Shown in pieces: positions 42,249 through 56,370 of a stretch of DNA of 64,000 nt. Positions within the stretch are counted from its first letter, which is position 1. Each line of letters opens with the position of its first letter. Source of the DNA: an uncultured Syntrophomonadaceae bacterium (lineage in GTDB: Bacteria > Bacillota > Dethiobacteria > DTU022); contig CAZBKZ010000008.1 of assembly GCA_964492615.1 (NCBI GenBank), positions 13,865-77,864 on the forward strand, written 5' to 3'. The notes beneath the pieces are model-generated. The model was given only the letters and a program-made list of their open reading frames with translations, was not told where the DNA came from and did not search any database. A program made the position numbers and the translations under genes.

Positions 42249-43895
42249 TTAATATTCATAACTGCGGGCAATGGGCATTCGCCTGCCCATACCAAAAGAA
42301 CGTGTTGTAACGCGTAGTCCGGGAGCGGCCTGGCGCCTTTTAAATTCGGCCCGGTCAACCATATAAATTACCCTTGCCACTGTTTCCGGTTCATAGCCCT
42401 TTTCTATAATTGCTTGCGCTGACAGGTTCTCTTCAATATAACAGTGCAGAATTGGATCCAGTATATGATAAGGAGGCAGGGAATCTTCATCTTTTTGGTC
42501 AGGACGCAGCTCTGCAGAAGGCGGTTTATTGATTGTTCTAATCGGTATTTGTTCGCTCCGGCAAATGTTGTTAATGTGATTAGCCAGCTCGTAAACCATC
42601 ATTTTGGGCAGATCGGCAATTACAGCCAGTCCACCGGCCATGTCTCCATACATCGTGCAGTAACCGACTGCGAGTTCCGACTTGTTGCCGGTTGTCAGGG
42701 CCAGCAGTCCTTCCCGGTTTGAATAGTGCATGATCAAGTTACCCCTTATACGTGCCTGCAGGTTTTCTTCCGCCAGGTCGCCCAGAGGCCCCATGCCTTG
42801 GTTTAGCTGGTCAATATAAGTGCTGAAGGGGTTGTCGATAGGAACAATGCGGTAAGGCATCCCCAGGTTTTCGGCAAGTCTGACCGCATCTTCAACGCTG
42901 TGTTCGGAAGAGTAAGGAGAAGGAAGCATTATACCTAAAACATTATCGGGGCCGAGAGCATACACTGCCAGGGCAGCAACAACAGCTGAGTCAATGCCGC
43001 CGCTCAAACCCAAAACAACCTTGCTAAAACCGGTTTTATGAACATAATCTTTCAATCCCGTCAGCAGAGCCTGGTAAATGGTATTAATGTTATCATTTGC
43101 TGGTGGCACGGTTTTTCCCGCCGGACTGTTTAGATCATCACTGTCAACGAAAAAAAGTTCTTCTTCAAAAGCGGCAGCACGATAAAGCAGCTCTCCGTTA
43201 CTGTTGTATACCAGGCTGCAGCCGTCAAAAACGAGTTCGTCGTTGCCTCCAACCTGGTTAAGATATATAATGCCACTTTTATACTTGGCAGATAAAAAGG
43301 ATAGAAGGTTTTCTCTAAGCCTGTGTTTGCCTAGATTATATGGAGACGCGGAAAGGTTGATTAGCATGCGGGCATCCTGCTTGAAAAGAAGTTCGACTGG
43401 ATCCAGGTTATGAATCGGATTGGCGAAAAAATCCCGATCATTCCAGATATCTTCGCATATAGTAATTGCTGCCGGGATGCCGTTCAGCATTTCAACCTGA
43501 CGATTGGTGCAGCTTGTGAAATAGCGTTTTTCATCAAACACGTCGTAGTTGGGCAGAAGGGTTTTATGGTGAACTGATTTGACCAGGCCATTTTCAAGGA
43601 CAAAAGCGCTGTTATACAGCTTACTATTTTCATTCTGGAAACTGCCGATTATGATCCCGGGATTTCCCTGGGCGGTTAGCGGAGCGATTTCATTTGAAAC
43701 TATTCTGTTTTCTCTTTCGATGAAGTCGCGGTAAAGCAGTAAATCTTTGGGGGGATAGCCACTAACAGCCATTTCGGTGAAGATAACAAGGTTTGCTTTT
43801 TCTTTCTTAGCTTTCATGTAGACATCTTTGATCCGGGCACAGTTTTTATTTAAGGCACCGATGGTTGGGTTAAGCTGGGCCAGTGCAATGCGCAT
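42249..43895 (-). CDS. nadE: Glutamine-dependent NAD+ synthetase (N-terminal CN-hydrolase domain plus NAD synthetase domain)
   Basis: N-terminal MRIALAQLNP nitrilase-type domain and C-terminal SGGIDS P-loop of NAD synthetase; 548 aa. Confidence 0.85.
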   Translation of the reverse strand: MRIALAQLNPTIGALNKNCARIKDVYMKAKKEKANLVIFTEMAVSGYPPKDLLLYRDFIERENRIVSNEIAPLTAQGNPGIIIGSFQNENSKLYNSAFVLENGLVKSVHHKTLLPNYDVFDEKRYFTSCTNRQVEMLNGIPAAITICEDIWNDRDFFANPIHNLDPVELLFKQDARMLINLSASPYNLGKHRLRENLLSFLSAKYKSGIIYLNQVGGNDELVFDGCSLVYNSNGELLYRAAAFEEELFFVDSDDLNSPAGKTVPPANDNINTIYQALLTGLKDYVHKTGFSKVVLGLSGGIDSAVVAALAVYALGPDNVLGIMLPSPYSSEHSVEDAVRLAENLGMPYRIVPIDNPFSTYIDQLNQGMGPLGDLAEENLQARIRGNLIMHYSNREGLLALTTGNKSELAVGYCTMYGDMAGGLAVIADLPKMMVYELANHINNICRSEQIPIRTINKPPSAELRPDQKDEDSLPPYHILDPILHCYIEENLSAQAIIEKGYEPETVARVIYMVDRAEFKRRQAAPGLRVTTRSFGMGRRMPIARSYEY

Positions 43896-44204
43896 TATTA
43901 CACCCCTTTACAAACAAAGCCCACGGGAATACGACTTTCCCGTGAGCGTTTTTCCCGTTTAAACTCCGGCTTATTCTGGCTGAATTATAAACAAGGCCGG
44001 GTTTAAAGTCAATAGGACCGGAACAATGTGAATTTTTGTCCGTTGATGGTGTCATTTCGTGAGAGCGCTATAAGCCGATATAGTTTTCTTGCCATGGCTG
44101 AGGATTCTTTTTATAATAAAAGTATCCTCCAGGTCGGAGTTTAAAACGCTATATGATATTTTCCGGTTTGGTTAATAATAATTATCAGAAAGTGGGGATT
44201 TTTA

Positions 44205-44414
44205 ATGCTGGAAGTCTATATTAAAGATGGCTGTCCTTATTGTGACAAGCAGGTAGATGTATTGAAAAGAAAAGGAACTGACTTTAAGCTTTATAATGTC
44301 AGCAGAGATATCGATGCCTTGAAAAAAGCTCGTGAAGAATATAAAGCTGATAAAGTTCCGGTGGTTGTTGAAGACGGCGTTTTACAATATACCGGTTTTG
44401 GTGGTGGCGGCTGA
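44205..44414 (+). CDS. Glutaredoxin-like small redox protein (CPYC active site)
   Basis: 69 aa with a YIKDGCPYCDK thioredoxin-fold active site and a Gly-rich C-terminus. Confidence 0.55.
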   Translation: MLEVYIKDGCPYCDKQVDVLKRKGTDFKLYNVSRDIDALKKAREEYKADKVPVVVEDGVLQYTGFGGGG

Positions 44415-44451
44415 GGCATTTAATATCACCGCCGTGTGCGGATTTGGTTGA

Positions 44452-45369
44452 TTAACGGGGATCAAGATGAACCAGTGTATCGCAGAAAAAGCAGGAGCTG
44501 ATATGGTCTTCAACCTGGTGGGCAATTTTATGTGCCTGATCAAGGGAGATGCTGCCGTCTACTTCAATGTGCATTGTTACAACCTTCCACGAACCGTAAT
44601 CATGGATTTCAAGATCGTGAATGTCAATGACACCCCCGACTTCCCGGGCGCTGTTACATATTTTTTGTTTAAGTGTTTGATCAGGAGCTTTCCCCAGCAG
44701 ACGGCTGCATGACTGCCTGGCGATTTTATAACCGGCATAGGCAATAAAGGCGGCAATTGCAAAGCCAAAGTATGCATCAAGGGCAGGAATCCCCAGGTAG
44801 CTTCCGGTTAAAGCAATTAATACAAGTATTGATGAAAGTGAGTCGCTGCGGTGGTGCCATGCATCGGCAGCAAGAGCTTCAGAGTCGATCTTTCGTCCCA
44901 GCACTGCTGAAAAATGGAACATAAATTCTTTTAAAGCTATAGCAAAAAGAACCACTGCAATTGTGAAAAGTCCCGGGCTGGCATAAATATTATTTGTAAC
45001 CCGGTGGTAAGCATTGTAAGCGAAGGCAATACCGGCTGCCAGTAACATTAAGGCTATCAGCAGTCCAGCCAGGTATTCTATGCGCCCGTGGCCGTGAGGG
45101 TGTTCATGATCGGGCTTACGTTTAGCCAGGGAAAACCCGATAAGTACCACCAGTGAAGATAATATGTCGGAAGCGCTGTGTACCGCATCGGCCGTCAGGG
45201 ATACGCTGTTTGTGAGCAGACCGAACAGACCCTTGAGCAGGGTTAAGAAGATGTTACCTGCTATGCTAACCCAGCTTTCTATTAATCCCACGCGGTGTCT
45301 CTCACCGGGATGATGTAGATCCCTGCTGTCAGTAAGTTTGTTTGCCAGGAACGAAGCTAAGTGTTTCAT
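44452..45369 (-). CDS. Cation diffusion facilitator (CDF) family metal efflux transporter
   Basis: Six TM helices, conserved H/D pairs in TM2 and TM5, His-rich cytoplasmic segment DHEHPHGHGR, C-terminal cytoplasmic domain. Confidence 0.75.
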   Translation of the reverse strand: MKHLASFLANKLTDSRDLHHPGERHRVGLIESWVSIAGNIFLTLLKGLFGLLTNSVSLTADAVHSASDILSSLVVLIGFSLAKRKPDHEHPHGHGRIEYLAGLLIALMLLAAGIAFAYNAYHRVTNNIYASPGLFTIAVVLFAIALKEFMFHFSAVLGRKIDSEALAADAWHHRSDSLSSILVLIALTGSYLGIPALDAYFGFAIAAFIAYAGYKIARQSCSRLLGKAPDQTLKQKICNSAREVGGVIDIHDLEIHDYGSWKVVTMHIEVDGSISLDQAHKIAHQVEDHISSCFFCDTLVHLDPR

Positions 45370-45619
45370 TTCACCATTCCCCATATTGTATTCCTACTAT
45401 TATAGCATTATAAAGTTGAAAATCGCATTTTCACTTTTCCTAAAAAAGATAATATGTTTCTAACCAGTTGAGGCATTGCTTGAGCACCGCATTCGGCTGT
45501 AAACGTGATTGTCAATATATAGCTCTGGTAGAAGTTGATATCCTCCTGAATCGATGGGGCAACCTTCTTTGCATCATACAGAGAGATGTGAAATAATTAT
45601 TATTTAGAAATAGTATATC

Positions 45620-45740
45620 CAGCACCGATGGGAGGGTTCCTCCGGCAAGCGGGCCGGATCCATTATAATGATTGGTTTAAATACCCGTATGCTAATCACA
45701 GTCAGGCCCGACCTGCAAGATTAACTGCGGGTTTTTTAGA
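45620..45740 (+). promoter_or_regulatory. Candidate cobalamin riboswitch-like leader (B12-box-like AGTCAGG...GACCTGC at 45700-45716) upstream of the MttB-family gene
   Basis: A 400-nt leader containing AGTCAGGCCCGACCTGC, which fits the B12-box pattern rAGYCMGgAgaCCkGCc. Upstream GC-rich paired elements (GGGAGGG...CCGG...CGGGCCGGATCC) and a downstream T-run (45732-45737) are present. The rest of the Rfam RF00174 core is not clearly recognisable by eye. Confidence 0.3.
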
Positions 45741-45787
45741 TATAAAAGATAAGGAGGTGTGGAGCCTGAATTGAAACAGGCTAAAAG

Positions 45788-47329
45788 ATGAGTAGAACCG
45801 GTATACTGATTAACAAGCCATATAAAAAGCTCAGCAGGGAGCAGGTTGAACTTATTGATCAAACCTCTCTTGAGCTCTTACAAACCCCCGGGATATTATG
45901 CTATCACGAAGAAAGTACCACCCTTTTTGAAAAGGAAGGCGCAAAAATAAAAAAAACCAAAGAAGGTGAACATGATGCCTGGTGGATTAGTATTCCACCC
46001 GGAGTTGTAAAGAGTGCTCTTGAGTCTGCTCCGGCCAGGGTTACCCTGGGTGCCCGCAATCCCGAAAATAGGGTAGTTTTAGACGCAGAAGGAAACAGGG
46101 TCTACTTCGGCACTGGTTCTGAAACTAATTACTGGCTGGAAATCGAGCCGGAGGAATTTACTTCTGATAAAGATGGGGCCAGGAGAACATTTGCGGTTAT
46201 GAAAAAAAGCCGGGGCAGCCTTAACCTGCTCTGCCGATCAGCTCATCTGGCAGAACAGCTGGAAAATCTCGATTTTTTTATCCGCAATGTTAATATTCAG
46301 GATTCTGATATTACAACAGGCAATAAAGACGTCAACGTATTTTTTGCTTCACTTAACCATCTGACTAAACCTGTTATCGGTGGGGTTGCTGATTATGAGC
46401 AGCTGGAAAAAATTGTTAGAATAGCTGAAATAATTGCCGGAGGAAGAGAGCAATTGAGGGAAAATCCCCTGGTTGCATTCATAACCAGCGTTATAAAAAG
46501 CCCGCTGCAGGTTGTTGATGATACCGCAGAAAAGTTAATTGCCATTGCCAGGCTCGGATTGCCTGTTGTTATTTCTACTTCTCCTCAGGGAGGATCAACA
46601 GCGCCTATCGATATGCTGGGTATGGTTGCCCAGGTTAATGCCGAAGCCCTGGCCGGTATAACCATTAATCAGCTTGCCAGTCGCGGCGCACCGGTGATTT
46701 ACGGGGCTGTCCCAGTCAGAGCCAGGATGGATGACTTGCATGACATGTACGGGGTCCCTGAATTCTGTCAATACACTATGGCCTGTGCACAGATGGCCAG
46801 GTATTACGGGGTGCCCTGTTATTCCACGGCAGGGGTTGGCGATGCCAAGGTTCCTGGTATTCAGGCAACAATGGAAAAAATGTACACCCATAGCATGGTT
46901 CCGCTTGCTGCTCCTGACCTGGTGCATTATTCTTTTGGGCTTCTTGACAAGACTCAGACTTATAGTCCGGAACAGGCAGTGCTGGATAATCATCAGATTG
47001 GCATGGTAAAATTTTTGCAAAGAGAACAGGAAGTTAATAGCAATTCAGCAGCTAAAACTAAGAAAATGATAGCTGACGTTATGCACAGCCCATACAGGAT
47101 GTATGCCCGTTATGCCAGGGGGATGCTCAGGCGTGGGGAAATTTTCGCCGGATTTCCTTTTGAAGGGAAATTGGAAGATCAGGACCAGACTTTGCTTAAG
47201 GTGCATGAAAAATTTGCTGAATTGGAAGCGGCTAAACCTAAATACCTGCCGGAAGATACCTGTAAATTAATCTTTAATGAAATATCCGGGCTTCTTCCGC
47301 GGCTTAATCCTTATGGGGAGGTTAAATAA
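45788..47329 (+). CDS. MttB-superfamily methyltransferase lacking pyrrolysine (glycine betaine/quaternary-amine:corrinoid methyltransferase-like, MtgB-type)
   Basis: 513-aa uninterrupted ORF (no in-frame TAG) with MttB-family TIM-barrel sequence features. Directly followed by a corrinoid protein gene. Confidence 0.8.
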   Translation: MSRTGILINKPYKKLSREQVELIDQTSLELLQTPGILCYHEESTTLFEKEGAKIKKTKEGEHDAWWISIPPGVVKSALESAPARVTLGARNPENRVVLDAEGNRVYFGTGSETNYWLEIEPEEFTSDKDGARRTFAVMKKSRGSLNLLCRSAHLAEQLENLDFFIRNVNIQDSDITTGNKDVNVFFASLNHLTKPVIGGVADYEQLEKIVRIAEIIAGGREQLRENPLVAFITSVIKSPLQVVDDTAEKLIAIARLGLPVVISTSPQGGSTAPIDMLGMVAQVNAEALAGITINQLASRGAPVIYGAVPVRARMDDLHDMYGVPEFCQYTMACAQMARYYGVPCYSTAGVGDAKVPGIQATMEKMYTHSMVPLAAPDLVHYSFGLLDKTQTYSPEQAVLDNHQIGMVKFLQREQEVNSNSAAKTKKMIADVMHSPYRMYARYARGMLRRGEIFAGFPFEGKLEDQDQTLLKVHEKFAELEAAKPKYLPEDTCKLIFNEISGLLPRLNPYGEVK

Positions 47330-48028
47330 ATGAGCAGTGATCTGCTTGAATTAATTGTAGAGAATGTTTTACAGGGTCGTCGTAACAGTGATGATGAAGG
47401 CATTGAGGAAGGAGATTTTGGTCAACCAGGGGTTGCTGAGCTGGTTGCCAGGGCCCTTGAAGATGGCATTAATACGGAACAGGTTCTCATAGATGGGCTC
47501 AGCCGTGGGATGCAGATGGTCGGTGACAAGTACGAAAGCGGTGAATACTTTATTCCTGATATGCTCACTGCAGCCGAAGCAGTGGAAGCCGGAATGGCTG
47601 TTCTGGAACCGTACCTGGTCAGCGGAGGTGAAAAGGCCGGCCGGGGTAAAATAGTAATGGCAACGGTTGAAAAAGATCTGCATGATATTGGCAAGAACCT
47701 TGTAACCATAATGCTCAAGGGGGCAGGCTTTAACGTGATTGACCTGGGAATTGATGTGCCGGCTGCCCGAGTGGTTGAGGTAGCTGAGCAGGAAGGCGCT
47801 GCCGTAATCGGTCTTTCGGCTTTACTTAACACTACAATGTCCAACATGAGTGAAGTGGTTAAGCTGCTTGAGGAGAAAGGGCTTCATGACCGCATCAAGG
47901 TATTAATTGGCGGTGCACCCGTATCCGATGATTTTGCAAGGGAAATCGGTGCAGATAGTTATGGCAAAGATGCTTTTGCGGCGATAAAAGAAGCAGAAAA
48001 ACTAATTGTATCCGGAGGGAATGTATAA
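47330..48028 (+). CDS. Cobalamin-binding corrinoid protein (MtbC/MtgC-like)
   Basis: N-terminal B12-binding-2 helical cap plus a Rossmann-like B12-binding domain with DxHxxG (DLHDIGKNLV); 232 aa. Confidence 0.8.
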   Translation: MSSDLLELIVENVLQGRRNSDDEGIEEGDFGQPGVAELVARALEDGINTEQVLIDGLSRGMQMVGDKYESGEYFIPDMLTAAEAVEAGMAVLEPYLVSGGEKAGRGKIVMATVEKDLHDIGKNLVTIMLKGAGFNVIDLGIDVPAARVVEVAEQEGAAVIGLSALLNTTMSNMSEVVKLLEEKGLHDRIKVLIGGAPVSDDFAREIGADSYGKDAFAAIKEAEKLIVSGGNV

Positions 48029-48029
48029 A

Positions 48030-49280
48030 ATGGAAGCTGACCAGGCATACCTGGAAGCCATACAACATGGTCGCTACAGTGAAAAAGTAAAAGGGTTACG
48101 CTGTAAGTATGATCACGTGCGCATACAATTTGAAGATTTCATTACAGCGTATTACCTGAGACCTTACCTGGAAGAAATGATGGAGCAGAAGCTTAACGGA
48201 GAAGAAAATGAAGGATTGCGTTTTTTTGATCTTGGCTGTGGAACTGGAGATGGATATGAACTGCTCTGCAAAATGGCAGGAGATACAAAACTGGCCGAGT
48301 TTGATACAAGGTTAATTCAGGAAGATATGGTACAACAGTACAAGGGGATTGACTTAAATATAGCCCTGCTTAAAGAAGCCAGGGAGTTATTTGGGCACTA
48401 TGAAAATGTTGATTTCTGCAAGGGTAATTTTTCTGAAGGTTTACCCCTGGAAGAAGGGGAAGAACCATATGATCTATATTTTACTTCCTACGGCACGCTT
48501 TCACACTGTAATGACGAAGAACTGGAAAGATTGTTTATTGATATTGCGAAACATGGGCGAGACGGCAGCCTGATCCTGGGAGACTTTATTGGCCGTTATT
48601 CGTATGAGTGGCAGGATACCTGGACGGTTCAACCCGAAGAACAGCCCTTTATTGACTATAAAATAAATTACCTGTATGCAGAAGAACAAAGGGATGAAGT
48701 GGATGTATCATCATTCCCGCTCCGACTGATGTCTCCGGTGGAATTGGACCAGATAATAGACGATGCCTCCCGGAAGAGCGGGGTCAGGTTGGAAGTATTG
48801 AAATACTTTGACCGCTCTCTTTTTATCGGCCGGCATATAGAAACAGGTACATATAACGGCAACCCTCAGCCACTGCGGCTTATGGTTTCGTCACTCTTTG
48901 AAAGAGGTTTGCGTACATATTTCCCCGATCTGAAAGTAAGTTTTCAGCCAAAAGAGGGTTTTAAACACGTGAATGAAGCGCTCCAGGTGTTGGCAGACAG
49001 CTGGAACAGCCTGCTTGACTATACAATGCTGTTAATGGAGCATTATGATGATGGGGAAGAACTGCTTCCCTACCCACCACAAACAGATATTAAATCTTTG
49101 GAGAAAGCATACAGGGTGATGCGACAAACCCTGGAGGGAAGCAGGGGGCTTTACGGTGATATCCGGGCGGATCTTATCGAAGCCCAGCTCGGTTATGCCC
49201 TGCGCAGCCTGGAAATGGGTCTGCAGAATGGCACCGGGGTTGGTCATGGACTGGTTGCTGTGATCCGGGTTAATAAGTAA
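48030..49280 (+). CDS. Class I SAM-dependent methyltransferase with a long C-terminal extension, embedded in the corrinoid methyltransferase locus
   Basis: Motif I FDLGCGTGDG and motif post-I (DLYFTSYG); about 416 aa. The start at 48030 is 8 nt after a GGAGGGA RBS and 1 nt after the corrinoid-protein stop. Confidence 0.55.
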   Translation: MEADQAYLEAIQHGRYSEKVKGLRCKYDHVRIQFEDFITAYYLRPYLEEMMEQKLNGEENEGLRFFDLGCGTGDGYELLCKMAGDTKLAEFDTRLIQEDMVQQYKGIDLNIALLKEARELFGHYENVDFCKGNFSEGLPLEEGEEPYDLYFTSYGTLSHCNDEELERLFIDIAKHGRDGSLILGDFIGRYSYEWQDTWTVQPEEQPFIDYKINYLYAEEQRDEVDVSSFPLRLMSPVELDQIIDDASRKSGVRLEVLKYFDRSLFIGRHIETGTYNGNPQPLRLMVSSLFERGLRTYFPDLKVSFQPKEGFKHVNEALQVLADSWNSLLDYTMLLMEHYDDGEELLPYPPQTDIKSLEKAYRVMRQTLEGSRGLYGDIRADLIEAQLGYALRSLEMGLQNGTGVGHGLVAVIRVNK

Positions 49281-49658
49281 AAGGGTTCTATGTACTCAAT
49301 ATCTATGATAATAAGCGCTGGGCTATAATCAGGCATGATTATCTGTCTTTAATCTTTCTAAAAGCGCAATTGCTTTGAATAAAGCATTTTAATGACGTAT
49401 ATCTGTCATATACGGTATTTGAATAAGGAAGCTTAATATGAAATAATTAATATATATTAATATGCACCAGTTCGTATTCATAAAAATCAAATATTATTCA
49501 AATTAACTTCACAACATCGCTATGTCTTATTTTAATTAATTTGTCAGGTAATGTGATTATAATAATCACTTATTTTGGTTTGCACCTGGTATAAAGTAGT
49601 GTGCTACTATTTTTGTTTTGCGCATTATTACAGAGAAAGGAAGGGTGATTGATAATAA

Positions 49659-50396
49659 ATGAACCTGAATGATGGCTTATTATCTAGTTATTTGTTTTCG
49701 GAAACCGGTTTTTCTTCTGTCACCGGACAGTCAGGCGTTGCGTCCTTATTTTCACGAACTGTTACATATTTTATGCGACGCAGTGATTTAGTCTGGGATT
49801 TGCTTTTAGAGCACATCTGGCTGGTTCTGGTATCAATTTTAATTGCAGTGGCAATAGCTGTCACAATTGGGGTTATCATCAGTTACAAGAGCAGTATAGC
49901 TATTACAGTAATAACTGTCTGCCAGATCTTGATGACCATCCCCAGTATGGCGATGCTTGCTTTTATGGTTCCCATCTTCGGCATAGGTTTTACTACCGGA
50001 GTAATGGCCTTGATCCTTTACAGCTTACTGCCGATCGTTCGCAACACATACACCGGTATTAAGGAAATCAGTCCTGCTATTGTAGAATCGGCAGTGGCCA
50101 TGGGCATGACCGAGTGGAGAGTATTGACCAAAATTAAGATCCCCCTGGCCCGCCCGGTAATCATGGCAGGTATCCGTACGGCAACTGTTATGATCGTTGG
50201 TATCGGCGCTATTGCAGCTTATGTAGGTGCCGGAGGGCTGGGAGAGTTAATTTTTCAGGGGATTTCCCGCTCACATGAACCGATGATAATTGTCGGAGCC
50301 CTTGGAGTTTCAATCATAGCGCTTGCTTTTGATTTCATTCTTTCGTGGGGAGAAAAAAAACTCATGGCAATCAGTAGAACAGGGGAGGCCAAGTAA
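49659..50396 (+). CDS. Osmoprotectant/betaine ABC transporter permease (OpuCB/ProW-like)
   Basis: Multi-TM permease with the ABC importer EAA-like loop region; its stop overlaps the ATPase start. Confidence 0.75.
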   Translation: MNLNDGLLSSYLFSETGFSSVTGQSGVASLFSRTVTYFMRRSDLVWDLLLEHIWLVLVSILIAVAIAVTIGVIISYKSSIAITVITVCQILMTIPSMAMLAFMVPIFGIGFTTGVMALILYSLLPIVRNTYTGIKEISPAIVESAVAMGMTEWRVLTKIKIPLARPVIMAGIRTATVMIVGIGAIAAYVGAGGLGELIFQGISRSHEPMIIVGALGVSIIALAFDFILSWGEKKLMAISRTGEAK

Positions 50397-51508
50397 TGAT
50401 CAAACTAGAAGGAATATCTAAAATATTTCCGGGATCCAAGGTACCGGCTGTTGATAACCTGAACCTGGAAGTTAAAGAAGGCGATATATGTGTTCTGGTT
50501 GGTCCTTCTGGATGCGGAAAGACCACAACCATGAAGATGATTAACCGGATTCACGAACCCAGCAGTGGATCAATCTACATAAATGGTAAAGACGCTTTGA
50601 AAATGAATCCGATTAAACTGCGCCTGGATATCGGCTACGTTATTCAGGAAATCGGATTATTTCCCCATCATACAATTGAAGAGAATGTGGCTACCGTTCC
50701 CAATGAAAAAAAGTGGCCCAGGGAAAAAACAAGAAAAAGAGTGGCCGAAATGTTGACCCTGGTTGGTTTGGACCCGGAAATTTACGGTAACCGCTATCCA
50801 TCCGCATTGAGCGGTGGGCAGCGCCAGCGGGTCGGAGTGGCACGGGCCATGGTCTCCGATCCCCCGATCATGTTGATGGATGAACCTTTTGGCGCAGTTG
50901 ACCCGATTACCAGAGCACGCTTGCAGAATGAATTTTTAAGGATCCAGGAAAGAATCAGTAAAACCATCGTTTTTGTAACCCATGATATCGATGAAGCGAT
51001 TAAGATGGGTGATACAATCGCAGTAATGAGAGAGGGCAAACTGGTGCAGCATGCTACACCGAGTGATTTGCTCAGCGCTCCTGCTGATGAGTTTGTAGGC
51101 AACCTGGTCGGACGAAACCGTTCTATCAAGCGTCTTCACCTGATTCGTATCCGTGAAATACTGGAACATGTGGACAGGGCAAAACCAGCCACAGTGGACA
51201 TGTCATTGAATGATCTGAAGCAGAGGCTTGATGATAGCGAAATTCATTCGGTTATGGTTGTTGATCGCGACAACAAGCTTAAAGGCGTTATCGGGGTTGC
51301 TGATCTTAAGCGCAAAGCCGGTGAAGTGGCTGCCGATTACATTCAGGAGTTGGATCAATCCGTTACAAGCGATGCTACTCTTAACGATGCGCTTTCGGTG
51401 ATGCTTGAATGCGGCGAGGGGTTTGTTGCCGTCGTTAATGAAGACGATCAATACCAGGGGACAATTACCCTTGGTGATTTGCTAAATGTTGTGAAGGAGG
51501 ACGGATAA
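50396..51508 (+). CDS. Glycine betaine/carnitine/choline ABC transporter ATP-binding protein with tandem C-terminal CBS domains (OpuCA/ProV-like)
   Basis: Walker A GPSGCGKTT, signature LSGGQRQR, Walker B LMDEP, followed by two CBS domains. Confidence 0.85.
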   Translation: MIKLEGISKIFPGSKVPAVDNLNLEVKEGDICVLVGPSGCGKTTTMKMINRIHEPSSGSIYINGKDALKMNPIKLRLDIGYVIQEIGLFPHHTIEENVATVPNEKKWPREKTRKRVAEMLTLVGLDPEIYGNRYPSALSGGQRQRVGVARAMVSDPPIMLMDEPFGAVDPITRARLQNEFLRIQERISKTIVFVTHDIDEAIKMGDTIAVMREGKLVQHATPSDLLSAPADEFVGNLVGRNRSIKRLHLIRIREILEHVDRAKPATVDMSLNDLKQRLDDSEIHSVMVVDRDNKLKGVIGVADLKRKAGEVAADYIQELDQSVTSDATLNDALSVMLECGEGFVAVVNEDDQYQGTITLGDLLNVVKEDG

Positions 51509-51511
51509 TCG

Positions 51512-52234
51512 ATGCTGCGAGATATCTGGCGGTGGGGCATACTTCCTCTTTTGTTGATTGCTGTAGGAGTTGCAATTGTAGTTTATGGAGTTAATAATCC
51601 AACCGATTCGCTGGTAGCCCGGGCGCTTACTTACGAAAATGTACTTAGGGGTTTGCGTCAGCACCTGATGCTTATGGTCGTCTCAATGTTTGGCGCAATT
51701 GTTATTGGTGTGTTGGTTGGTATAATGCTTTCCCGCCCAAAACTGTATTACCTGGGGCGCGGTGTTGAAAATGTGGTTAACGTGGGACAGACAATCCCCA
51801 GCCTGGCTATACTGGCTTTGTTTTTTACCATCATGGGGCTCGGTTTTAACGTGGCAGTATTCGCCCTGTTTTTATATTCTATTCTTCCCATCCTCAGGAA
51901 TACGTTTGCCGGTATTGTTAACGTGCAGAAGAGTATTATTGAATCGGCCAGGGGAATGGGTATGAATCCGTTACGTATTTTAGTCAAGATTGAACTGCCC
52001 CTGGCATTTCCGATTATAGTGGCAGGGATTCGCACAGCGATAGTTATAAACGTTGGCGCAGCTACCCTGGCTACCTTTATTGGTGGTGGAGGATTTGGTG
52101 ATTTAATTGTTACCGGCCTTTCACTGCGCCGGGATATGATTGTTTTTACCGGGGCAGGTCTGGCTGCCCTGACGGCAATATTTCTTGACTACTATATTGC
52201 CAGAATTGAAGAAAGATTGGTCAGGTGGACCTGA
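51512..52234 (+). CDS. Osmoprotectant ABC transporter permease (second permease, OpuCD-like)
   Basis: Paralogous to the first permease (...ILPI.RNT..GI..V...). Confidence 0.8.
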   Translation: MLRDIWRWGILPLLLIAVGVAIVVYGVNNPTDSLVARALTYENVLRGLRQHLMLMVVSMFGAIVIGVLVGIMLSRPKLYYLGRGVENVVNVGQTIPSLAILALFFTIMGLGFNVAVFALFLYSILPILRNTFAGIVNVQKSIIESARGMGMNPLRILVKIELPLAFPIIVAGIRTAIVINVGAATLATFIGGGGFGDLIVTGLSLRRDMIVFTGAGLAALTAIFLDYYIARIEERLVRWT

Positions 52235-52297
52235 TCATTTTAAGGTTTGGCTATTTTCCCATATGAGCAAATACCTGAAGGGGGTAAATCTATTAAA

Positions 52298-53218
52298 ATG
52301 TTTAAACGAGTTTTAATTACATTGATCATCATTGCATTACTGGCGGGTTCTCTATTTATATCTGGTTGCCAGTCTGGTGAAGATGGAGTAGTAATTGGTT
52401 CAAAGGAGTTCACCGAGTCGTTGATTCTCAGCCAGATATCCATACTGGCGCTCGAGGCAAATGGGATCCCGACAGTTGATGAAACAGGGCTTGGAGGTAC
52501 TGTAGTTGCCCGCGAAGCTCTTGAAGCAGGAGAAATCGATCACTACTGGGAATATACAGGAACAGCTTTGGTCAATTACTTCGGATTTGATGTACTTACC
52601 GATCCTGAGGAATGCTATCAGCTGGTTAGGGATACTGATCTTGAAAGAAATAATCTGGTATGGCTCGATTACACACAGTATAACAATACTTATGTAATTA
52701 TGATGCGCCAGGCAGATGCAGATGCTCTCGGTATTTATTCGATCAGTGATCTTGCTGCAGCTATTAACGAAGAGGTGGAAGCTCCTGAGCCGGGCACCTG
52801 GAAATTTGGTACCAATCATGAATACTCAACCCGTGATGACGGTTTTCCCGGTTTGCTTGAGCACTACGATTTTGAATTTGACAGTGTTGAAGTAATGGAT
52901 TACGGAATTCTTTATACAGCCCTGAGAGACGGTGAATTAGCCTCGGCGATGGGTTTTGGAACAGATGGCCGTATCACTCCTTTCGAATTGGTTATTCTGG
53001 AAGATGACCAGTTCTTTCACCCTGTCTACAACAGTTCCCCTGTTTTCCGTCAGGAAGTGATTGATGAGTATCCACAAATTCCGGAAATCTTAGGCCCAAT
53101 TGCAACTGCTCTTGACAATGAGAATATGGCGAATTTAAATAGGTTGGTTGATGAAGAAGATCATCTGCCAAGAGAAGTTGCCGAAGAATGGTTAATCGAG
53201 CAGGGTTTTATTGAATAG
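52298..53218 (+). CDS. Osmoprotectant (glycine betaine/choline-type) ABC transporter substrate-binding lipoprotein (OpuCC-like)
   Basis: Lipobox FISGCQ, ~300-aa mature protein, OpuAC/OpuCC-family fold features. Start at MFKRV after an AAGGGGG RBS. Confidence 0.8.
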   Translation: MFKRVLITLIIIALLAGSLFISGCQSGEDGVVIGSKEFTESLILSQISILALEANGIPTVDETGLGGTVVAREALEAGEIDHYWEYTGTALVNYFGFDVLTDPEECYQLVRDTDLERNNLVWLDYTQYNNTYVIMMRQADADALGIYSISDLAAAINEEVEAPEPGTWKFGTNHEYSTRDDGFPGLLEHYDFEFDSVEVMDYGILYTALRDGELASAMGFGTDGRITPFELVILEDDQFFHPVYNSSPVFRQEVIDEYPQIPEILGPIATALDNENMANLNRLVDEEDHLPREVAEEWLIEQGFIE

Positions 53219-53285
53219 GCCAGCTTTATTGGTCTTAAATGATAAATAAAAGTAATATTGCATATTAAGGGAAAGTAGCCGTTAT

Positions 53286-53335
53286 ATGGGGGTGAGTAGG
53301 GTAACCTAATCTTACCCCCATCATTATATATTTTT
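53286..53335 (+). terminator. Terminator-like hairpin after the transporter operon
   Basis: atgggggt...acccccat stem followed by an atatattttt run. Confidence 0.4.
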
Positions 53336-53358
53336 ACAACCAAACAGGAGGGATAAGC

Positions 53359-53853
53359 ATGACGGTGCTGGCGAAACAAATTATGACCAAGCCGGTTATT
53401 ACAGTTAAAGCAGACACCCCGCTGAAAAGAGCCGCTGAAATTCTTGATGAGAACCGGTTTAGCGGGATGCCTGTTGTCGACGACCAGTATAAACTGATTG
53501 GCATATTGTCGGAAGCTGATATTCTGCATTATACACAGCAGATCATCGGGCAGCCTTTAAGAGATCCTCATCGGGTTTTTACAAAAAGCAAAGAAGTGCT
53601 GCATATTGATATTACCCACAGAGGCGTTGAAGTGATAGAATTGGTGGCGGCAACGACAGTAGAGACCCTGATGACTACCGAGGTCATTCATGTAAATGTG
53701 GATACTCCAGTTATGGAAGTTGTCCGCCTGATGAAAAAGCACAATATTAACCGTATTCCGGTAGTTGACAGTAACGATATTTTACAGGGAATTATTACCC
53801 GGGCTGATATTATCAGCATGCTGATCAAATACTGGCCTGCAGAAATGGAGTAA
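53359..53853 (+). CDS. CBS-domain pair protein
   Basis: Two CBS motifs (IMTKPVITV...GMPVVD and VIHVN...INRIPVVD); 164 aa. Confidence 0.75.
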   Translation: MTVLAKQIMTKPVITVKADTPLKRAAEILDENRFSGMPVVDDQYKLIGILSEADILHYTQQIIGQPLRDPHRVFTKSKEVLHIDITHRGVEVIELVAATTVETLMTTEVIHVNVDTPVMEVVRLMKKHNINRIPVVDSNDILQGIITRADIISMLIKYWPAEME

Positions 53854-53905
53854 ATAATATTATAATCACGATGCAGGGATAGATGGATAAACTGGAGGGT
53901 TCTAT

Positions 53906-55360
53906 ATGAAAAGTCCGATCTATGAAGGAGGCAGTTACCGTGTTCTTTCAGACAGGGAGATCGGCCAGATACACGAAACGTCGCTTCGGGTTTTGGAAAC
54001 AGTAGGGTTTGAAATTAATTTTCCACCGGCCCTTAATATGTTTGAAGAAAAAGGTGCTGAGGTTGACCGGACCCGAAGCAGGGTTTACCTGCCCAGGGAG
54101 CTGGTGACTCGCTCTATTAAACAGGCTCCGTCTGAATTCATGTTTTATGGTCGGGAAGAAGGTAAAAGTATTACAGTTGGAGGGAAAAGAGTTCACTTCG
54201 GAACCGGCGGTCTGGCTCTGTATGTTCTGGACCTGGAGCGTAATAAACGCCCGGGGACCCTTAAAGATGTTGCTGATCTGGCTCGTTTGGCTGATAATCT
54301 CGAAAACCTCGACTTTTTTATCATTCCTGTATATCCTCACGATATTAATATTGATACTGTTGATATCAACACTAAGTACCAGGCCCTGCTGCATACCGGC
54401 AAACCGGTTATGGGCGGGATATTTAACCTCCAGGGGCTGGAGGATATGGTTGCTATTGCCTCAATGATTGCCGGAGGGTTGGAGAACCTCAGAAAAAGGC
54501 CGTTCCTTGGGTTTATATCCTCAATCACCAGCCCTTTGAAAATAAGTGCGGATCATGCAGAATATATAATGAAAATTGCCGATTACGGTTTACCGCTGGC
54601 CACTTCAACGGCGCCTGCAGCCGGAGCAACTGCTCCCATTACCCTGGCCGGAACTCTGGTTCAGCAAAATGCTGAGGCATTGATGGGTGTGGTTATCTCT
54701 CAGCTGGTTAATCCGGGAACACCGGTTCTATACAGTGCTGTACCGGTTACCATGGATATGCGCACCATGTCATTTTTAATGGGCAGCATTGAATCAGGTT
54801 TAATGAATGCAGCAATTACCCAGATGGCCCATTTTTATCGTTTGCCCTGTTACCTAACTGTGGGGACAACCGATTCAAAACTTCCTGATGCCCAGGCTGC
54901 GCACGAAGGGGCTTCATCGGCCATGCTTGCAGCACTGGCCGGAGGCAATTTCATTCATGAAGCTTTTGGCATGCTTGATGGGGCTATGACAGTATCTTAT
55001 GCCCAGTATATCATTGATAATGATATTGTAGGCAGTTGTCTCAGAACCCTGAGAGGTATTGAGGTAGATGAAGATACCCTGGCTTATGAAATTATTAAAA
55101 AAGTCGGCCCTGGAGGGAACTACCTGGGAGAAGAACATACAGTTAAGTACGTGCGCACTGAAAGCTTTTCGCCCAGGGCCAGCGACCGGCAGCAATACCA
55201 GCACTGGTTTGATGCGGGCAGCAAGGATAGTTGGAAACGAGCGGAAGAGGTGGTTGAGCAGCTGCTTGGCGAGCCTTTCGTAACTAAAATTCCTGTTGAT
55301 CTGGATCAATTAATCAGGGAGCAATTTCCCGACCTTGTTGATATTAAAGAAAATGAATAG
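53906..55360 (+). CDS. Second MttB-superfamily methyltransferase lacking pyrrolysine (paralog of 45788..47329)
   Basis: 484-aa uninterrupted ORF that aligns with the first MttB-family protein (e.g. ...GTGG.A.YVLDLE... / LENLDFFI motifs shared). Confidence 0.8.
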   Translation: MKSPIYEGGSYRVLSDREIGQIHETSLRVLETVGFEINFPPALNMFEEKGAEVDRTRSRVYLPRELVTRSIKQAPSEFMFYGREEGKSITVGGKRVHFGTGGLALYVLDLERNKRPGTLKDVADLARLADNLENLDFFIIPVYPHDINIDTVDINTKYQALLHTGKPVMGGIFNLQGLEDMVAIASMIAGGLENLRKRPFLGFISSITSPLKISADHAEYIMKIADYGLPLATSTAPAAGATAPITLAGTLVQQNAEALMGVVISQLVNPGTPVLYSAVPVTMDMRTMSFLMGSIESGLMNAAITQMAHFYRLPCYLTVGTTDSKLPDAQAAHEGASSAMLAALAGGNFIHEAFGMLDGAMTVSYAQYIIDNDIVGSCLRTLRGIEVDEDTLAYEIIKKVGPGGNYLGEEHTVKYVRTESFSPRASDRQQYQHWFDAGSKDSWKRAEEVVEQLLGEPFVTKIPVDLDQLIREQFPDLVDIKENE

Positions 55361-55454
55361 TCAGGTGAGCAGGTGCAGAGGAAGGAAAGCAACCGTTTAT
55401 GTAGAAATATTTGCATGGATTATGAAAACTTAGTGATAGGTGTGATATTAAGTA

Positions 55455-56318
55455 ATGAAGATTAAGAAAGCGGTTATTCCGGCAGCCGGCATGGGGACAC
55501 GATTCCTCCCTTTTACCAAGGCTGTGCCCAAGGAAATGCTTCCCGTGGTTGACAAACCAACCCTGCAGTTGATAGTTGAGGAAGTGTTCCAGGCCGGGAT
55601 CGAAGATATCCTGATTATTACCGGCAGGGGTAAGACTGCAATAGAGGATCATTTTGATCGCAGTATTGAACTGGAGAACATGCTGCAGAGCAAAAAGAAA
55701 GCTGATGAATTGAAAGAGATAAAAGAGATTGCTTCCCTGGCAAATATATTTTATGTGCGCCAGAAAGAGCCACTCGGTCTGGGTCATGCTGTGCTTTGTG
55801 CCCGCCAATTCATTGGTAATGAACCCTTTGCTGTTTTATTGGGAGATGATCTGGTTCATGCAGAAGTTCCCGTTATCGGTCAGCTGGCGGCAGTATATGA
55901 AGAAAAAGGCAGCACTGTAGTTGGCTGTAAGCGTGTTGGTATGGAAAACGTTCATAAATACGGCGTTGTTGATTGTGAAGATCCCGATGCTGAAGTAGTC
56001 AGAGTCAGAAAGTTGACTGAAAAACCGCGTCGTGAGGAAGCCGTCTCAGATTTGGCCGTACTTGGCAGATATATTATAGACCCTGAAATCTTTGATATTA
56101 TTGAAAGGACCGGCCCCGGTGCCGGTGGTGAAATCCAGCTGACTGATGCGCTAAATAGTCTTGCTGCAGAAAAACCTGTTTGGGCTTATACTTTTCATGG
56201 CCGCCGGTATGATGTTGGCGACAAACTCGGTTTTCTCGAAGCAACGGTTGAATATGCCCTGCGCAGGGAAGGCCTGGCTGAAGATTTTAAACAATATCTG
56301 AAGTCTCTGCCGCTTTGA
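55455..56318 (+). CDS. galU: UTP--glucose-1-phosphate uridylyltransferase
   Basis: KAVIPAAGMGTRFLP.TKA.PKEMLP and the conserved GalU core; 287 aa. Confidence 0.85.
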   Translation: MKIKKAVIPAAGMGTRFLPFTKAVPKEMLPVVDKPTLQLIVEEVFQAGIEDILIITGRGKTAIEDHFDRSIELENMLQSKKKADELKEIKEIASLANIFYVRQKEPLGLGHAVLCARQFIGNEPFAVLLGDDLVHAEVPVIGQLAAVYEEKGSTVVGCKRVGMENVHKYGVVDCEDPDAEVVRVRKLTEKPRREEAVSDLAVLGRYIIDPEIFDIIERTGPGAGGEIQLTDALNSLAAEKPVWAYTFHGRRYDVGDKLGFLEATVEYALRREGLAEDFKQYLKSLPL

Positions 56319-56370
56319 TCAGTTTCCTTATATTTATTTAGGATAATACCTGGATTAAGGAGGGATTCAG

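What the first reader, a model, noticed from the sequence alone, without database searches (positions are those of the whole stretch)
48030..49280. Unusual ~416-aa class I SAM-dependent methyltransferase inserted between the corrinoid protein and the betaine transporter genes
The protein has a clear motif I (FDLGCGTGDG) and post-I motif, plus a ~200-aa C-terminal extension without a recognisable domain. Its start is separated by one nucleotide from the corrinoid-protein stop and has its own RBS, so it is almost certainly co-transcribed. A SAM-dependent methyltransferase is not part of any described MttB-family/corrinoid demethylation system. It could methylate the corrinoid or the substrate. 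It could be a glycine/sarcosine/dimethylglycine N-methyltransferase-like enzyme interconverting betaine precursors. It could also be a novel accessory or regulatory component. This is the least explained gene of the locus.
Basis: partly seen in the sequence, partly recalled or inferred. Interest (0 to 1): 0.6.

Follow-up and report, generated by a model that had tools for sequence, protein, structure and literature searches.

The report
SAM methyltransferase wedded to corrinoid demethylase
A real, uncharacterised 416-residue SAM-dependent methyltransferase gene sits directly behind one particular corrinoid-protein/MttB gene pair in about 80 loci from several bacterial phyla, and elsewhere is fused to asparagine synthetase, which points to an undescribed pathway that makes and un-makes a methylated (betaine-type) osmolyte in salt-adapted anaerobes.

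Summary
The gene runs from ATG 48030 to stop 49280 (416 aa). It starts 1 nt after the corrinoid-protein stop and has its own GGAGGG ribosome-binding site. SAM motif I is intact, and the C-terminal ~220 aa match no known domain.

It is not a housekeeping methyltransferase and not an insertion.
- In 78 of 79 evaluable related loci a corrinoid protein lies immediately upstream. In 65 of 66 a distinct MttB clade ('MttB-B') lies before that. These loci come from Dethiobacteria/Syntrophomonadaceae, Thermodesulfobacteriota and others.
- The reverse holds too: 3 of 3 sampled MttB-B homologues are followed by the corrinoid protein and this methyltransferase.
- Twenty-six loci share the seven-gene order MetH-activation-like, MttB-A, pterin methyltransferase, MttB-B, corrinoid protein, methyltransferase, asparagine-synthetase(-like).
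- Five divergent asparagine-synthetase–methyltransferase fusion proteins exist. Two were examined in context; both lie next to OpuA-type transporters with no MttB or corrinoid gene called nearby.

The enzyme therefore acts on a small molecule on its own. A weak profile match to phosphoethanolamine N-methyltransferase aligns the invariant His159 with that enzyme's catalytic His.

Best model (about 0.45): it N-methylates an amine into the quaternary osmolyte that MttB-B demethylates. The acceptor is unknown; an asparagine-derived betaine is a candidate. I found no literature describing this association.

The parts
45600..45745 (+). Conserved 5' leader ending in an intrinsic-terminator-like hairpin plus U-run, upstream of the MttB-B gene. 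Candidate attenuator or riboswitch for the operon.
   Evidence: Promoter-like site 45568-45597 and terminator-like site 45710-45733. The leader is conserved in 11-13 related loci. No Rfam match at E <= 1.
45788..47329 (+). MttB-B: a 513-aa non-pyrrolysine MttB-superfamily methyltransferase of a distinct clade. Predicted quaternary-amine:corrinoid methyltransferase of unknown substrate.
   Evidence: PF06253 E = 2.1e-60, a weak score. Orthologues are 48-52% identical across phyla. It lies two genes upstream of the methyltransferase in 65/66 loci. The MtgB glycine-betaine-binding positions are (S/T)/Y/Y/T and are conserved.
47330..48028 (+). Corrinoid (B12-binding) protein, 232 aa, the cognate partner of MttB-B ('CoP1').
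   Evidence: PF02310 and PF02607. Best NCBIfam matches are MtgC-type corrinoid proteins, below cut-off. It lies immediately upstream of the methyltransferase in 78/79 loci.
48014..48019 (+). Shine-Dalgarno sequence GGAGGG for the methyltransferase gene, lying inside the end of the corrinoid-protein gene.
   Evidence: Read directly from the sequence.
48030..49280 (+). The finding: a 416-aa class I SAM-dependent methyltransferase of an uncharacterised family. Motif I is at residues 65-75. The invariant His159 codon is at 48504-48506. The C-terminal lid domain covers roughly residues 190-416.
49659..53218 (+). OpuA-type betaine/choline ABC transporter: permease 49659-50396, ATPase 50396-51508, permease 51512-52234, OpuAC binding protein 52247-53218.
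   Evidence: OpuAC PF04069 E = 1.3e-51. The transporter is syntenic in related loci. Opu genes occur in 38 of 92 loci.
53359..53853 (+). Stand-alone CBS-pair protein (164 aa), conserved directly upstream of MttB-A in the Dethiobacteria-type loci. Possible adenosyl-ligand sensor.
   Evidence: PF00571 E = 2.6e-35. Synteny. The sensor role is inference.
53906..55360 (+). MttB-A: a second non-pyrrolysine MttB-superfamily methyltransferase (484 aa), the conserved partner clade in the same loci.
   Evidence: PF06253 E = 1.4e-110. Orthologues are 42-52% identical across phyla. The pyrrolysine position is Thr321. The MtgB-binding positions are G/Y/(D,E)/(C,A).

Best explanation
The gene encodes an active SAM-dependent small-molecule N-methyltransferase of a previously uncharacterised ~415-aa family. 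I propose that it methylates an amino-acid-type amine, probably repeatedly, up to the quaternary (betaine) stage. Its product would then be the same quaternary amine that the MttB-B enzyme and corrinoid protein encoded directly upstream demethylate, passing the methyl group on to tetrahydrofolate.

On this reading the module is a make / take-up / un-make unit for a betaine-type compatible solute in salt-adapted anaerobes. SAM-dependent synthesis builds the pool and the OpuA transporter imports it. Corrinoid-dependent demethylation recovers the expensive methyl groups for the Wood-Ljungdahl pathway when the pool must shrink.

Shown here:
- The gene is real and its SAM motifs are intact.
- The MttB-B / corrinoid protein / methyltransferase synteny is strict.
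- The methyltransferase is linked to and fused with asparagine synthetase.
- Family members exist without any corrinoid protein.

Inferred:
- N-methylation chemistry through His159.
- The methyltransferase product being the MttB-B substrate.
- The osmolyte role.
- The identity of the acceptor. The candidate in the AsnB-linked lineages is asparagine or aspartate. It is unknown for this window, which has no AsnB gene.
For: (1) Synteny. The corrinoid protein is immediately upstream in 78/79 loci and MttB-B before it in 65/66. The median intergenic gap is 17.5 nt and is 1 nt in this window. Reciprocally, three MttB-B homologues from different lineages are each followed by the corrinoid protein and the methyltransferase.

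(2) Autonomy of the enzyme. Five divergent AsnB-methyltransferase fusion clusters exist (49-55% identical; 901-949 aa). The two I aligned retain nearly all family-invariant residues. The two examined in context (P0295, P0301) lie beside OpuA-type ABC transporters with no MttB or corrinoid gene called in the flanking ~10 kb. Natranaerobius has a stand-alone copy.

(3) Biosynthetic look of the neighbourhood. A true AsnB (574 bits against a cut-off of 499; N-terminus MCGI) or a Cys2-to-Ser paralogue directly follows the methyltransferase in 41/67 loci. MetK and/or AhcY occur in 6 loci. TrkAH and an MscS-like channel flank the Desulfoferrobacter locus. ProA lies in the Firmicute-type loci.

(4) Chemistry. 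The family profile's second-best group of solved relatives is Plasmodium phosphoethanolamine N-methyltransferase (E = 3.7e-5 to 7e-5). That enzyme trimethylates a primary amine. Invariant His159 aligns with PfPMT His132 and D185 with D159. The catalytic role of PfPMT His132 is from my own knowledge of the literature. Foldseek's best hits are small-molecule methyltransferases, including GNMT, CcbJ and TylM1.

(5) The MttB part is catabolic and complete. Pterin-binding methyltransferases and reactivation factors are present in related loci.

(6) Precedent for accessory substrate-handling enzymes in MttB operons: the MthK kinase (PMC12155760).
Confidence: 0.45

Rival explanations
1. Catabolic substrate tailoring. 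The methyltransferase converts an imported tertiary amine or thioether into the quaternary 'onium' form that a non-pyrrolysine MttB can attack. This would be analogous to MthK phosphorylating choline before MthB acts.
For: The MthK precedent. Tight coupling to MttB-B and the corrinoid protein. The substrates of both MttBs are evidently not bound as glycine betaine is in MtgB. How anaerobes demethylate dimethylglycine is unresolved.
Against: Methylating with SAM and then removing one methyl yields no net demethylation and costs about three ATP equivalents per SAM (established biochemistry). This does not explain the AsnB fusions or the stand-alone copies that lack MttB.
Confidence: 0.15
2. SAM-dependent (re)methylation of the corrinoid protein. 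A class I methyltransferase would trap Co(I) as methyl-Co(III), replacing or assisting MetH-type or RamA-type reactivation.
For: The corrinoid-protein-then-methyltransferase gene order parallels the order 'second corrinoid protein then reactivation factor' in loci with two corrinoid proteins. In those loci the methyltransferase occupies the 'MT2' slot of an MttB-B / corrinoid protein triad. The window's 64 kb holds no MetH-activation-like gene. I did not search it for a RACo/RamA homologue.
Against: Related loci already encode a reactivation factor. These are MetH-activation-like proteins that keep the RFSPGY SAM motif or a RACo-type activase. Family members with the same invariant residues occur with no corrinoid protein at all, and fused to AsnB. 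The conserved His aligned to the PMT catalytic His suggests amine deprotonation. No class I methyltransferase is known to methylate a corrinoid (own knowledge).
Confidence: 0.1
3. Protein-modifying or regulatory role. The methyltransferase would methylate a residue of MttB-B or the corrinoid protein, as McmA does for methyl-coenzyme M reductase, or would act as a SAM sensor controlling the module.
For: Strict adjacency and likely stoichiometric co-expression. A large conserved lid domain could be a protein-binding surface.
Against: The same autonomy argument applies: fusions and stand-alone copies exist without MttB-B or the corrinoid protein. The position equivalent to pyrrolysine in MttB-B is an invariant Val, which is not modifiable. 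The catalytic motifs are fully conserved, which a pure sensor would not need.
Confidence: 0.07
4. An unrelated housekeeping methyltransferase (rRNA/tRNA, UbiE/MenG, CmoA/B) that merely neighbours the locus.
For: Only generic Pfam methyltransferase domains are detected.
Against: NCBIfam scores are more than tenfold below every family cut-off. Synteny with MttB-B and the corrinoid protein spans phyla. The family is small: 154 representatives at E <= 1e-30 among 1.84 billion.
Confidence: 0.02

Closest known systems
Phosphoethanolamine N-methyltransferase (PfPMT/PMT; PDB 3UJ6, 4R6W)
   Same: Class I SAM-dependent small-molecule N-methyltransferase that makes a quaternary amine by repeated methylation. 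It is the best named solved relative of the family profile (E = 3.7e-5). The alignment extends past the Rossmann core, and the catalytic His is conserved as His159.
   Different: PMT is ~260 aa, and this protein has an extra ~150-aa helical lid. The overall Foldseek TM-score normalised to the query is only ~0.3-0.37 for any solved methyltransferase. I could not establish equivalents of the PMT phosphate-binding residues. PMT is not linked to corrinoid proteins.
Glycine/sarcosine/dimethylglycine N-methyltransferases (GSMT/SDMT) of halophile betaine-synthesis operons
   Same: The proposed physiological role is the same: SAM-dependent synthesis of a betaine osmolyte. The operon logic is also similar, with MetK/AhcY in some loci.
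   Different: There is no detectable specific sequence relationship. The PDB profile hits at E <= 1 include no chain named as a sarcosine/dimethylglycine methyltransferase. GNMT appears only as one of many generic fold matches. Length and architecture differ. The partner enzyme here is asparagine synthetase.
MttB-superfamily three-component systems (MtgBCA, MtpB, MtcB, MtyB, MthBCA+MthK)
   Same: The locus has the MttB-type MT1 and a corrinoid protein. Related loci add the pterin-binding MT2 and a reactivation factor. As with MthK, an extra enzyme acting on the substrate is encoded in the operon.
   Different: No described system contains a SAM-dependent methyltransferase or an asparagine synthetase. 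Both MttBs lack the MtgB glycine-betaine-binding residues.
CpaM, 'corrinoid protein-associated methyltransferase' (NCBIfam NF043040, hypothetical equivalog)
   Same: In concept it is the same: a class I methyltransferase family named for its association with corrinoid proteins.
   Different: It is a different family (model of 216 positions). The window protein gives no hit even at E <= 10. Only distant relatives give sub-threshold hits of 20-29 bits against a cut-off of 180. I found no paper on CpaM.
MetH activation domain (PF02965) and RamA/RACo reductive activases
   Same: All involve SAM or ATP acting on corrinoid proteins, and all are encoded in the same related operons.
   Different: Fold and family are unrelated. 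These factors are present as separate genes alongside the methyltransferase.

Membership tests
Class I (Rossmann-fold) SAM-dependent methyltransferases | Glycine-rich motif I (E/DxGxGxG) that binds SAM | tested here: met
   D67-L-G-C-G-T-G-D-G75. G69, C70 and G71 are invariant in 52 sequences.
Class I (Rossmann-fold) SAM-dependent methyltransferases | Acidic residue at the end of beta-2 and the alternating beta/alpha core fold | tested here: met
   D108 is conserved in at least 90% of sequences after strand 101-108. The AF2 model has the alternating strand/helix core. Foldseek gives probability 1.0 to many class I methyltransferases. Pfam Methyltransf_25 scores above its cut-off (35.3 against 27).
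Phosphoethanolamine N-methyltransferase (PMT) | Catalytic His (PfPMT His132) after beta-4 | tested here: met
   Invariant His159 aligns with PfPMT His132 in the profile alignment. The role of His132 is from my own knowledge of the literature.
Phosphoethanolamine N-methyltransferase (PMT) | Catalytic Tyr19 and the phosphate-binding set (Tyr160, Tyr175, Arg179, Tyr181, Lys247), in a ~260-aa architecture | tested here: inconclusive
   Trp/Phe186 aligns with Tyr160. The other positions fall in regions that are not reliably aligned. The protein is 416 aa with an extra lid. I therefore do not file it as a PMT.
GSMT/SDMT glycine-betaine synthesis methyltransferases | Specific sequence similarity to GSMT/SDMT/GNMT-type enzymes | tested here: not met
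   No such solved chain appears among the profile hits at E <= 1. No NCBIfam or Pfam family of that kind matches. GNMT appears only as a generic fold hit with TM-score (query-normalised) 0.32.
CpaM corrinoid protein-associated methyltransferase (NF043040) | Score at or above the family cut-off (180 bits) | tested here: not met
   No hit at E <= 10 for the window protein, P0073 or P0045.
Methylcobamide:acceptor MT2 enzymes (MtgA/AcsE pterin-binding; MtaA/MtbA UroD-like) | Pterin-binding TIM barrel (PF00809) or UroD-like fold | tested here: not met
   Neither domain is present in the protein. Separate PF00809 genes are present in related loci.
MetH-type SAM-dependent reactivation domain (PF02965) | Met_synt_B12 fold with the RxxxGY SAM motif | tested here: not met
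   The methyltransferase has no PF02965 match. That family is represented by a different gene in related loci, carrying RFSPGY.
Housekeeping methyltransferases (UbiE/MenG, BioC, CmoA/B, rRNA/tRNA methyltransferases) | Score at or above the curated family cut-off | tested here: not met
   UbiE scores 16.8 against 216, BioC 15.9 against 185, MenG/UbiE 14.5 against 158. No RNA-methyltransferase family was hit.
MttB-B / corrinoid protein / methyltransferase module (defined here) | Gene order MttB-B, corrinoid protein, methyltransferase on one strand with short gaps | tested here: met
   Window 45788-49280, with no gap between MttB-B and the corrinoid-protein gene and a 1-nt gap before the methyltransferase. 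The same order is found in 65/66 and 78/79 loci.

The most novel reading that the evidence does not exclude
Asparagine synthetase plus this methyltransferase make a so far unknown compatible solute, an N-methylated asparagine such as N,N,N-trimethylasparagine ('asparagine betaine'). MttB-B with its corrinoid protein would be the dedicated demethylase for that solute. If so, marine, hypersaline and soda-lake sediment anaerobes possess a complete, previously unseen synthesis / uptake / methyl-recovery cycle for a new osmolyte, which would also be a new methyl substrate feeding the Wood-Ljungdahl pathway.
Probability: 0.15. Interest if true: 0.85.

Novelty: new variant of a known kind. Interest (0 to 1): 0.66.

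Why it matters
MttB-superfamily systems control the fate of quaternary amines, which are osmolytes, methane precursors and trimethylamine precursors, in sediments and guts. Most clades of the superfamily have no known substrate. Here one clade (MttB-B) turns out to be locked to a SAM-dependent methyltransferase across phyla, and often to an asparagine synthetase as well. That gives a concrete, testable handle on both the substrate of this clade and the function of an orphan methyltransferase family. If the synthesis/demethylation model holds, it would show how energy-limited halophilic anaerobes recover the high cost of methylated osmolytes. It could also reveal a new compatible solute. Even if the model fails, a SAM enzyme inside a corrinoid demethylation operon is undescribed and needs a new mechanistic explanation.

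Tried and rejected
- **Solved-structure sequence search** with the single protein found nothing meaningful; the best E was 0.08, a DnaJ chance hit.
- **C-terminal half alone** against Pfam at E <= 10: no domain.
- **Riboswitch search** over 43800-56500: only a PYLIS_3 hit inside MttB-A. No known ligand-sensing RNA gives a clue to the substrate.
- **Literature searches** for the association, for CpaM and for asparagine-type betaines found nothing relevant.
- **Cluster names** gave only 'class I SAM-dependent methyltransferase'.
- **Reverse (biosynthetic) operation of MttB with methyl-THF as donor.** I considered this and rejected it on thermodynamic grounds (own reasoning from established methyl-transfer potentials). 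Regeneration of SAM from SAH by methyl-corrinoid fails for the same reason.
- **Post-translational pyrrolysine surrogate** made by AsnB plus the methyltransferase. Rejected because the Dethiobacteria-type loci lack AsnB and the pyrrolysine-equivalent residue of MttB-B is an invariant Val.
- **Contexts of remote family members** (Usp fusion; ~390-aa subfamily) were uninformative.
- The single genome-collection scan, run with one protein, reached only 8 close relatives. Its quota was then spent, so I could not check whether Natranaerobius encodes MttB-B elsewhere in its genome.
Full report
**1. The observation**

The window carries an uninterrupted reading frame from ATG 48030 to the TAA at 49278-49280, encoding 416 aa. 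The mechanical ORF begins earlier, at TTG 48006. ATG 48030 is the start with a proper Shine-Dalgarno sequence (GGAGGG 48014-48019, 10-nt spacing). Motif I (FFDLGCGTGDG, residues 65-75) is present.

Pfam gives only generic class I methyltransferase matches over residues ~60-180; the best is Methyltransf_25 at E = 1.9e-8. NCBIfam gives nothing near any cut-off: UbiE scores 16.8 bits against 216 and BioC 15.9 against 185. The C-terminal 227 residues match no Pfam family even at E <= 10.

The gene is clearly real. There are 940 homologues with E <= 1e-3, and the best 120 are nearly all full length at 405-450 aa. An AlphaFold2 model built from 52 homologues is confident along the whole chain (pLDDT 90.1, pTM 0.90). 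The C-terminal half is not a loose extension. It adds strands to the sheet and a helical bundle, and it holds many of the 40 invariant residues.

**2. The gene is a fixed part of an MttB/corrinoid module, not an insertion**

Upstream lie a divergent MttB-superfamily gene (45788-47329, 513 aa; 'MttB-B') and a corrinoid protein (47330-48028). Downstream lie an OpuA-type ABC transporter, a CBS-pair protein and a second MttB (53906-55360, 484 aa; 'MttB-A').

Eight genome loci from soda-lake Syntrophomonadaceae/Dethiobacteria-type MAGs show the same MttB-B, corrinoid protein, methyltransferase order. So do phylogenetically distant Thermodesulfobacteriota, including Desulfoferrobacter suflitae. There the methyltransferase is only 43% identical, MttB-B 52% and the corrinoid protein 55%.

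A metagenome scan added 80 loci. Over 92 non-redundant loci:
- The corrinoid protein is the immediate upstream neighbour in 78 of 79 evaluable cases.
- MttB-B precedes the corrinoid protein in 65 of 66.
- The corrinoid-stop to methyltransferase-start distance has a median of 17.5 nt, and 54 of 82 are 30 nt or less.

The reverse test also holds. Three MttB-B homologues picked from other lineages are each followed by the corrinoid protein and the methyltransferase. The only exception found is Natranaerobius, where the methyltransferase stands alone.

Twenty-six loci share the full order MetH-activation-like protein, MttB-A, pterin-binding methyltransferase, MttB-B, corrinoid protein, methyltransferase, asparagine-synthetase(-like). 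Thirty-eight loci carry Opu transporter genes, 53 an AsnB-type gene and 6 MetK and/or AhcY.

**3. What the partners say**

Neither MttB looks like the characterised glycine-betaine enzyme MtgB. The four residues shown to bind glycine betaine are Y97, R312, H348 and F356 (PMC13080624). In MttB-A they are G / Y / D or E / C or A. In MttB-B they are S or T / Y / Y / T. Both patterns are conserved across 52 and 68 orthologues respectively. The substrates are therefore unknown and probably not bound as glycine betaine is in MtgB.

Related loci carry their own reactivation factors. One kind is a ~220-aa protein with the MetH activation-domain motif RFSPGY and a C-terminal Cys cluster. The other, in one lineage, is a RACo-type ATP-dependent activase.

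In loci with two corrinoid proteins, MttB-A, the second corrinoid protein and the pterin methyltransferase form a canonical triad. MttB-B, the first corrinoid protein and the SAM methyltransferase form a second triad.

**4. The decisive clue: the enzyme works without corrinoid proteins and is fused to asparagine synthetase**

An exhaustive HMM search of 1.84 billion cluster representatives finds a small family: 154 proteins at E <= 1e-30. Among them are proteins of 901-949 aa in which a complete asparagine synthetase B precedes the methyltransferase domain. The AsnB part scores 566 bits on NF006949 against a cut-off of 499, and its N-terminus is MCGI. Five such fusion clusters exist, only 49-55% identical to one another, so the fusion is old and maintained.

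The methyltransferase domains of the two fusions I aligned keep almost every family-invariant residue. The two fusions whose context I examined (P0295, P0301) lie next to OpuA-type ABC transporters, one of them also near a Na+/H+ exchanger and a MarR regulator. No MttB or corrinoid gene is called in the flanking ~10 kb.

In the Thermodesulfobacteriota-type operons the gene directly after the methyltransferase is an AsnB in 41 of 67 evaluable loci. It is either a true AsnB or a paralogue whose catalytic Cys2 is replaced by Ser (MSG[FL]...). It is sometimes translationally coupled, with a 4-nt overlap in L016. A Usp-methyltransferase fusion also exists.

Together with the Natranaerobius orphan, this shows that the methyltransferase has an autonomous small-molecule activity tied to asparagine synthetase. 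That argues against its being a corrinoid-methylating or protein-modifying factor.

**5. Likely chemistry**

Foldseek against the PDB returns only generic small-molecule class I methyltransferases (CcbJ, GNMT, TylM1, cap methyltransferase, FPP methyltransferases). Query-normalised TM-scores are ~0.3-0.37, and the lid domain is unmatched.

A profile of the family against all PDB sequences ranks 1WZN first. Next come the Plasmodium phosphoethanolamine N-methyltransferases (E = 3.7e-5 to 7e-5). That alignment runs beyond the Rossmann core. It places invariant His159 on PfPMT His132 and D185 on D159. His132 is the catalytic base of PfPMT according to my own knowledge of the literature. PMT converts a primary amine to a quaternary one by three methylations in one site.

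The family also has many invariant Arg, Lys and aromatic residues (K26, Y27, R31, W194, W198, Y210, R262, R268, Y275, R283, R295). These would suit a zwitterionic or anionic amine, but I could not place them in 3D. I therefore infer, without having shown it, N-methylation of an amino-acid-type acceptor.

**6. Best model**

The methyltransferase makes or re-makes the quaternary amine that MttB-B and its corrinoid protein demethylate. OpuA imports it. AsnB, where present, supplies or finishes the acceptor, and MetK/AhcY regenerate SAM. The pterin methyltransferase passes recovered methyl groups to tetrahydrofolate.

The surroundings support an osmolyte-turnover reading:
- TrkAH and an MscS-like channel flank the Desulfoferrobacter locus.
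- ProA is part of the Firmicute-type loci.
- The source records of the close genome loci are soda-lake sediment MAGs, to judge from their sample names.
- 'Ca. Syntrophonatronum', a relative, has no recognised betaine synthesis route (PMC6295475).

Co-expression of synthesis and breakdown needs post-translational control. I regard this as the main weakness. For this window, which lacks AsnB, the acceptor remains open. Confidence is about 0.45.

**7. Rivals**

- *Catabolic tailoring by analogy to MthK* (PMC12155760). This is attractive but gives no net methyl gain.
- *SAM-dependent methylation of the corrinoid protein.* Gene order supports it, but the separate reactivation factors and the corrinoid-free family members count against it.
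- *Protein modification or SAM sensing.* This faces the same autonomy objection.
- *A housekeeping role.* This is excluded by the synteny statistics.

**8. Comparison with what is known, and novelty**

The protein is a class I SAM methyltransferase (membership features met). It is not a member of GSMT/SDMT, PMT, UbiE/BioC, CpaM (NF043040; no hit at E <= 10), the MT2 families or the MetH activation domain. No paper I could find describes a SAM methyltransferase or an asparagine synthetase as part of an MttB system. None describes an asparagine-type betaine as a microbial solute. I rate it a new variant of a known kind: an MttB/corrinoid methyl-transfer module with two undescribed accessory enzymes, built around an orphan methyltransferase family.

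**9. Limits**

Noticed in passing
window 45568-45787 (+): A conserved ~130-nt 5' leader lies upstream of the MttB-B gene. It has a promoter-like site (45568-45597), a conserved hairpin (CTCCGG...GGCCGGA) and a long terminator-like hairpin plus U7 (about 45690-45740). Related soda-lake loci share it, and it has no Rfam match. It is a candidate attenuator or riboswitch of unknown ligand. In addition, the AAGGAGGTG box (45751-45759) lies 28 nt from ATG 45788. A conserved hairpin separates them and shows compensatory changes (CAGCCTGG/CCAGGCTG versus CAGCCCGG/CCGGGCTG).
   Followed up: partly
window 54866-54965 (+): Rfam PYLIS_3 (pyrrolysine insertion sequence of mttB) matches above its gathering score (52.8 against 38 bits) inside MttB-A. 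This gene has no in-frame stop, and Thr321 sits at the pyrrolysine position. The match probably reflects conserved coding sequence, or descent from a pyrrolysine-type mttB.
   Followed up: partly
L003 13003-14526, L016 11260-12780 and 24 further loci: An asparagine-synthetase paralogue has its N-terminal catalytic Cys2 replaced by Ser (MSG[FL]VV...), so it is probably glutaminase-dead. It lies directly after the methyltransferase gene and sometimes overlaps it by 4 nt. Its substrate is unknown.
   Followed up: partly
P0295, P0418, P0419, P0420, P0301; loci L101-L103: Bifunctional asparagine synthetase B-methyltransferase fusion proteins (901-949 aa) occur in five divergent clusters. The two examined in context lie next to OpuA-type ABC transporters with no MttB or corrinoid genes nearby.
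   Followed up: yes
L003 4254-4949, L098 14586-15233, L100 14326-14988 and about 30 further loci: Stand-alone ~220-aa proteins related to the MetH activation domain. They keep the RFSPGY SAM-binding motif and add a C-terminal CxxCx4C cluster. They are encoded at the head of the operon or directly after the second corrinoid protein, and are likely SAM-dependent reactivation factors for MttB-type systems.
   Followed up: partly
L009 14785-19617, L012 14578-19185, L100 15004-17322: In the Firmicute-type loci with two corrinoid proteins the module is followed by a bona fide ProA (546 bits against a cut-off of 289) and a GCS2-like carboxylate-amine ligase. L009 and L012 also have an aldehyde:ferredoxin oxidoreductase. 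No ProB gene was seen in the stretch annotated. The GCS2-like enzyme might supply gamma-glutamyl phosphate for osmotic proline synthesis (speculative).
   Followed up: no
window 53359-53853 (+): A stand-alone CBS-pair protein is conserved immediately upstream of MttB-A in the Dethiobacteria-type loci. It is a possible adenosyl-ligand (SAM/AMP) sensor for the module.
   Followed up: no
P0314 (350 aa, contig-limited fragment): One representative joins the end of a B12-binding domain to the start of the methyltransferase in a single reading frame. It may be a genuine corrinoid protein-methyltransferase fusion, or an assembly or frameshift artefact given the 1-nt gene spacing.
   Followed up: no
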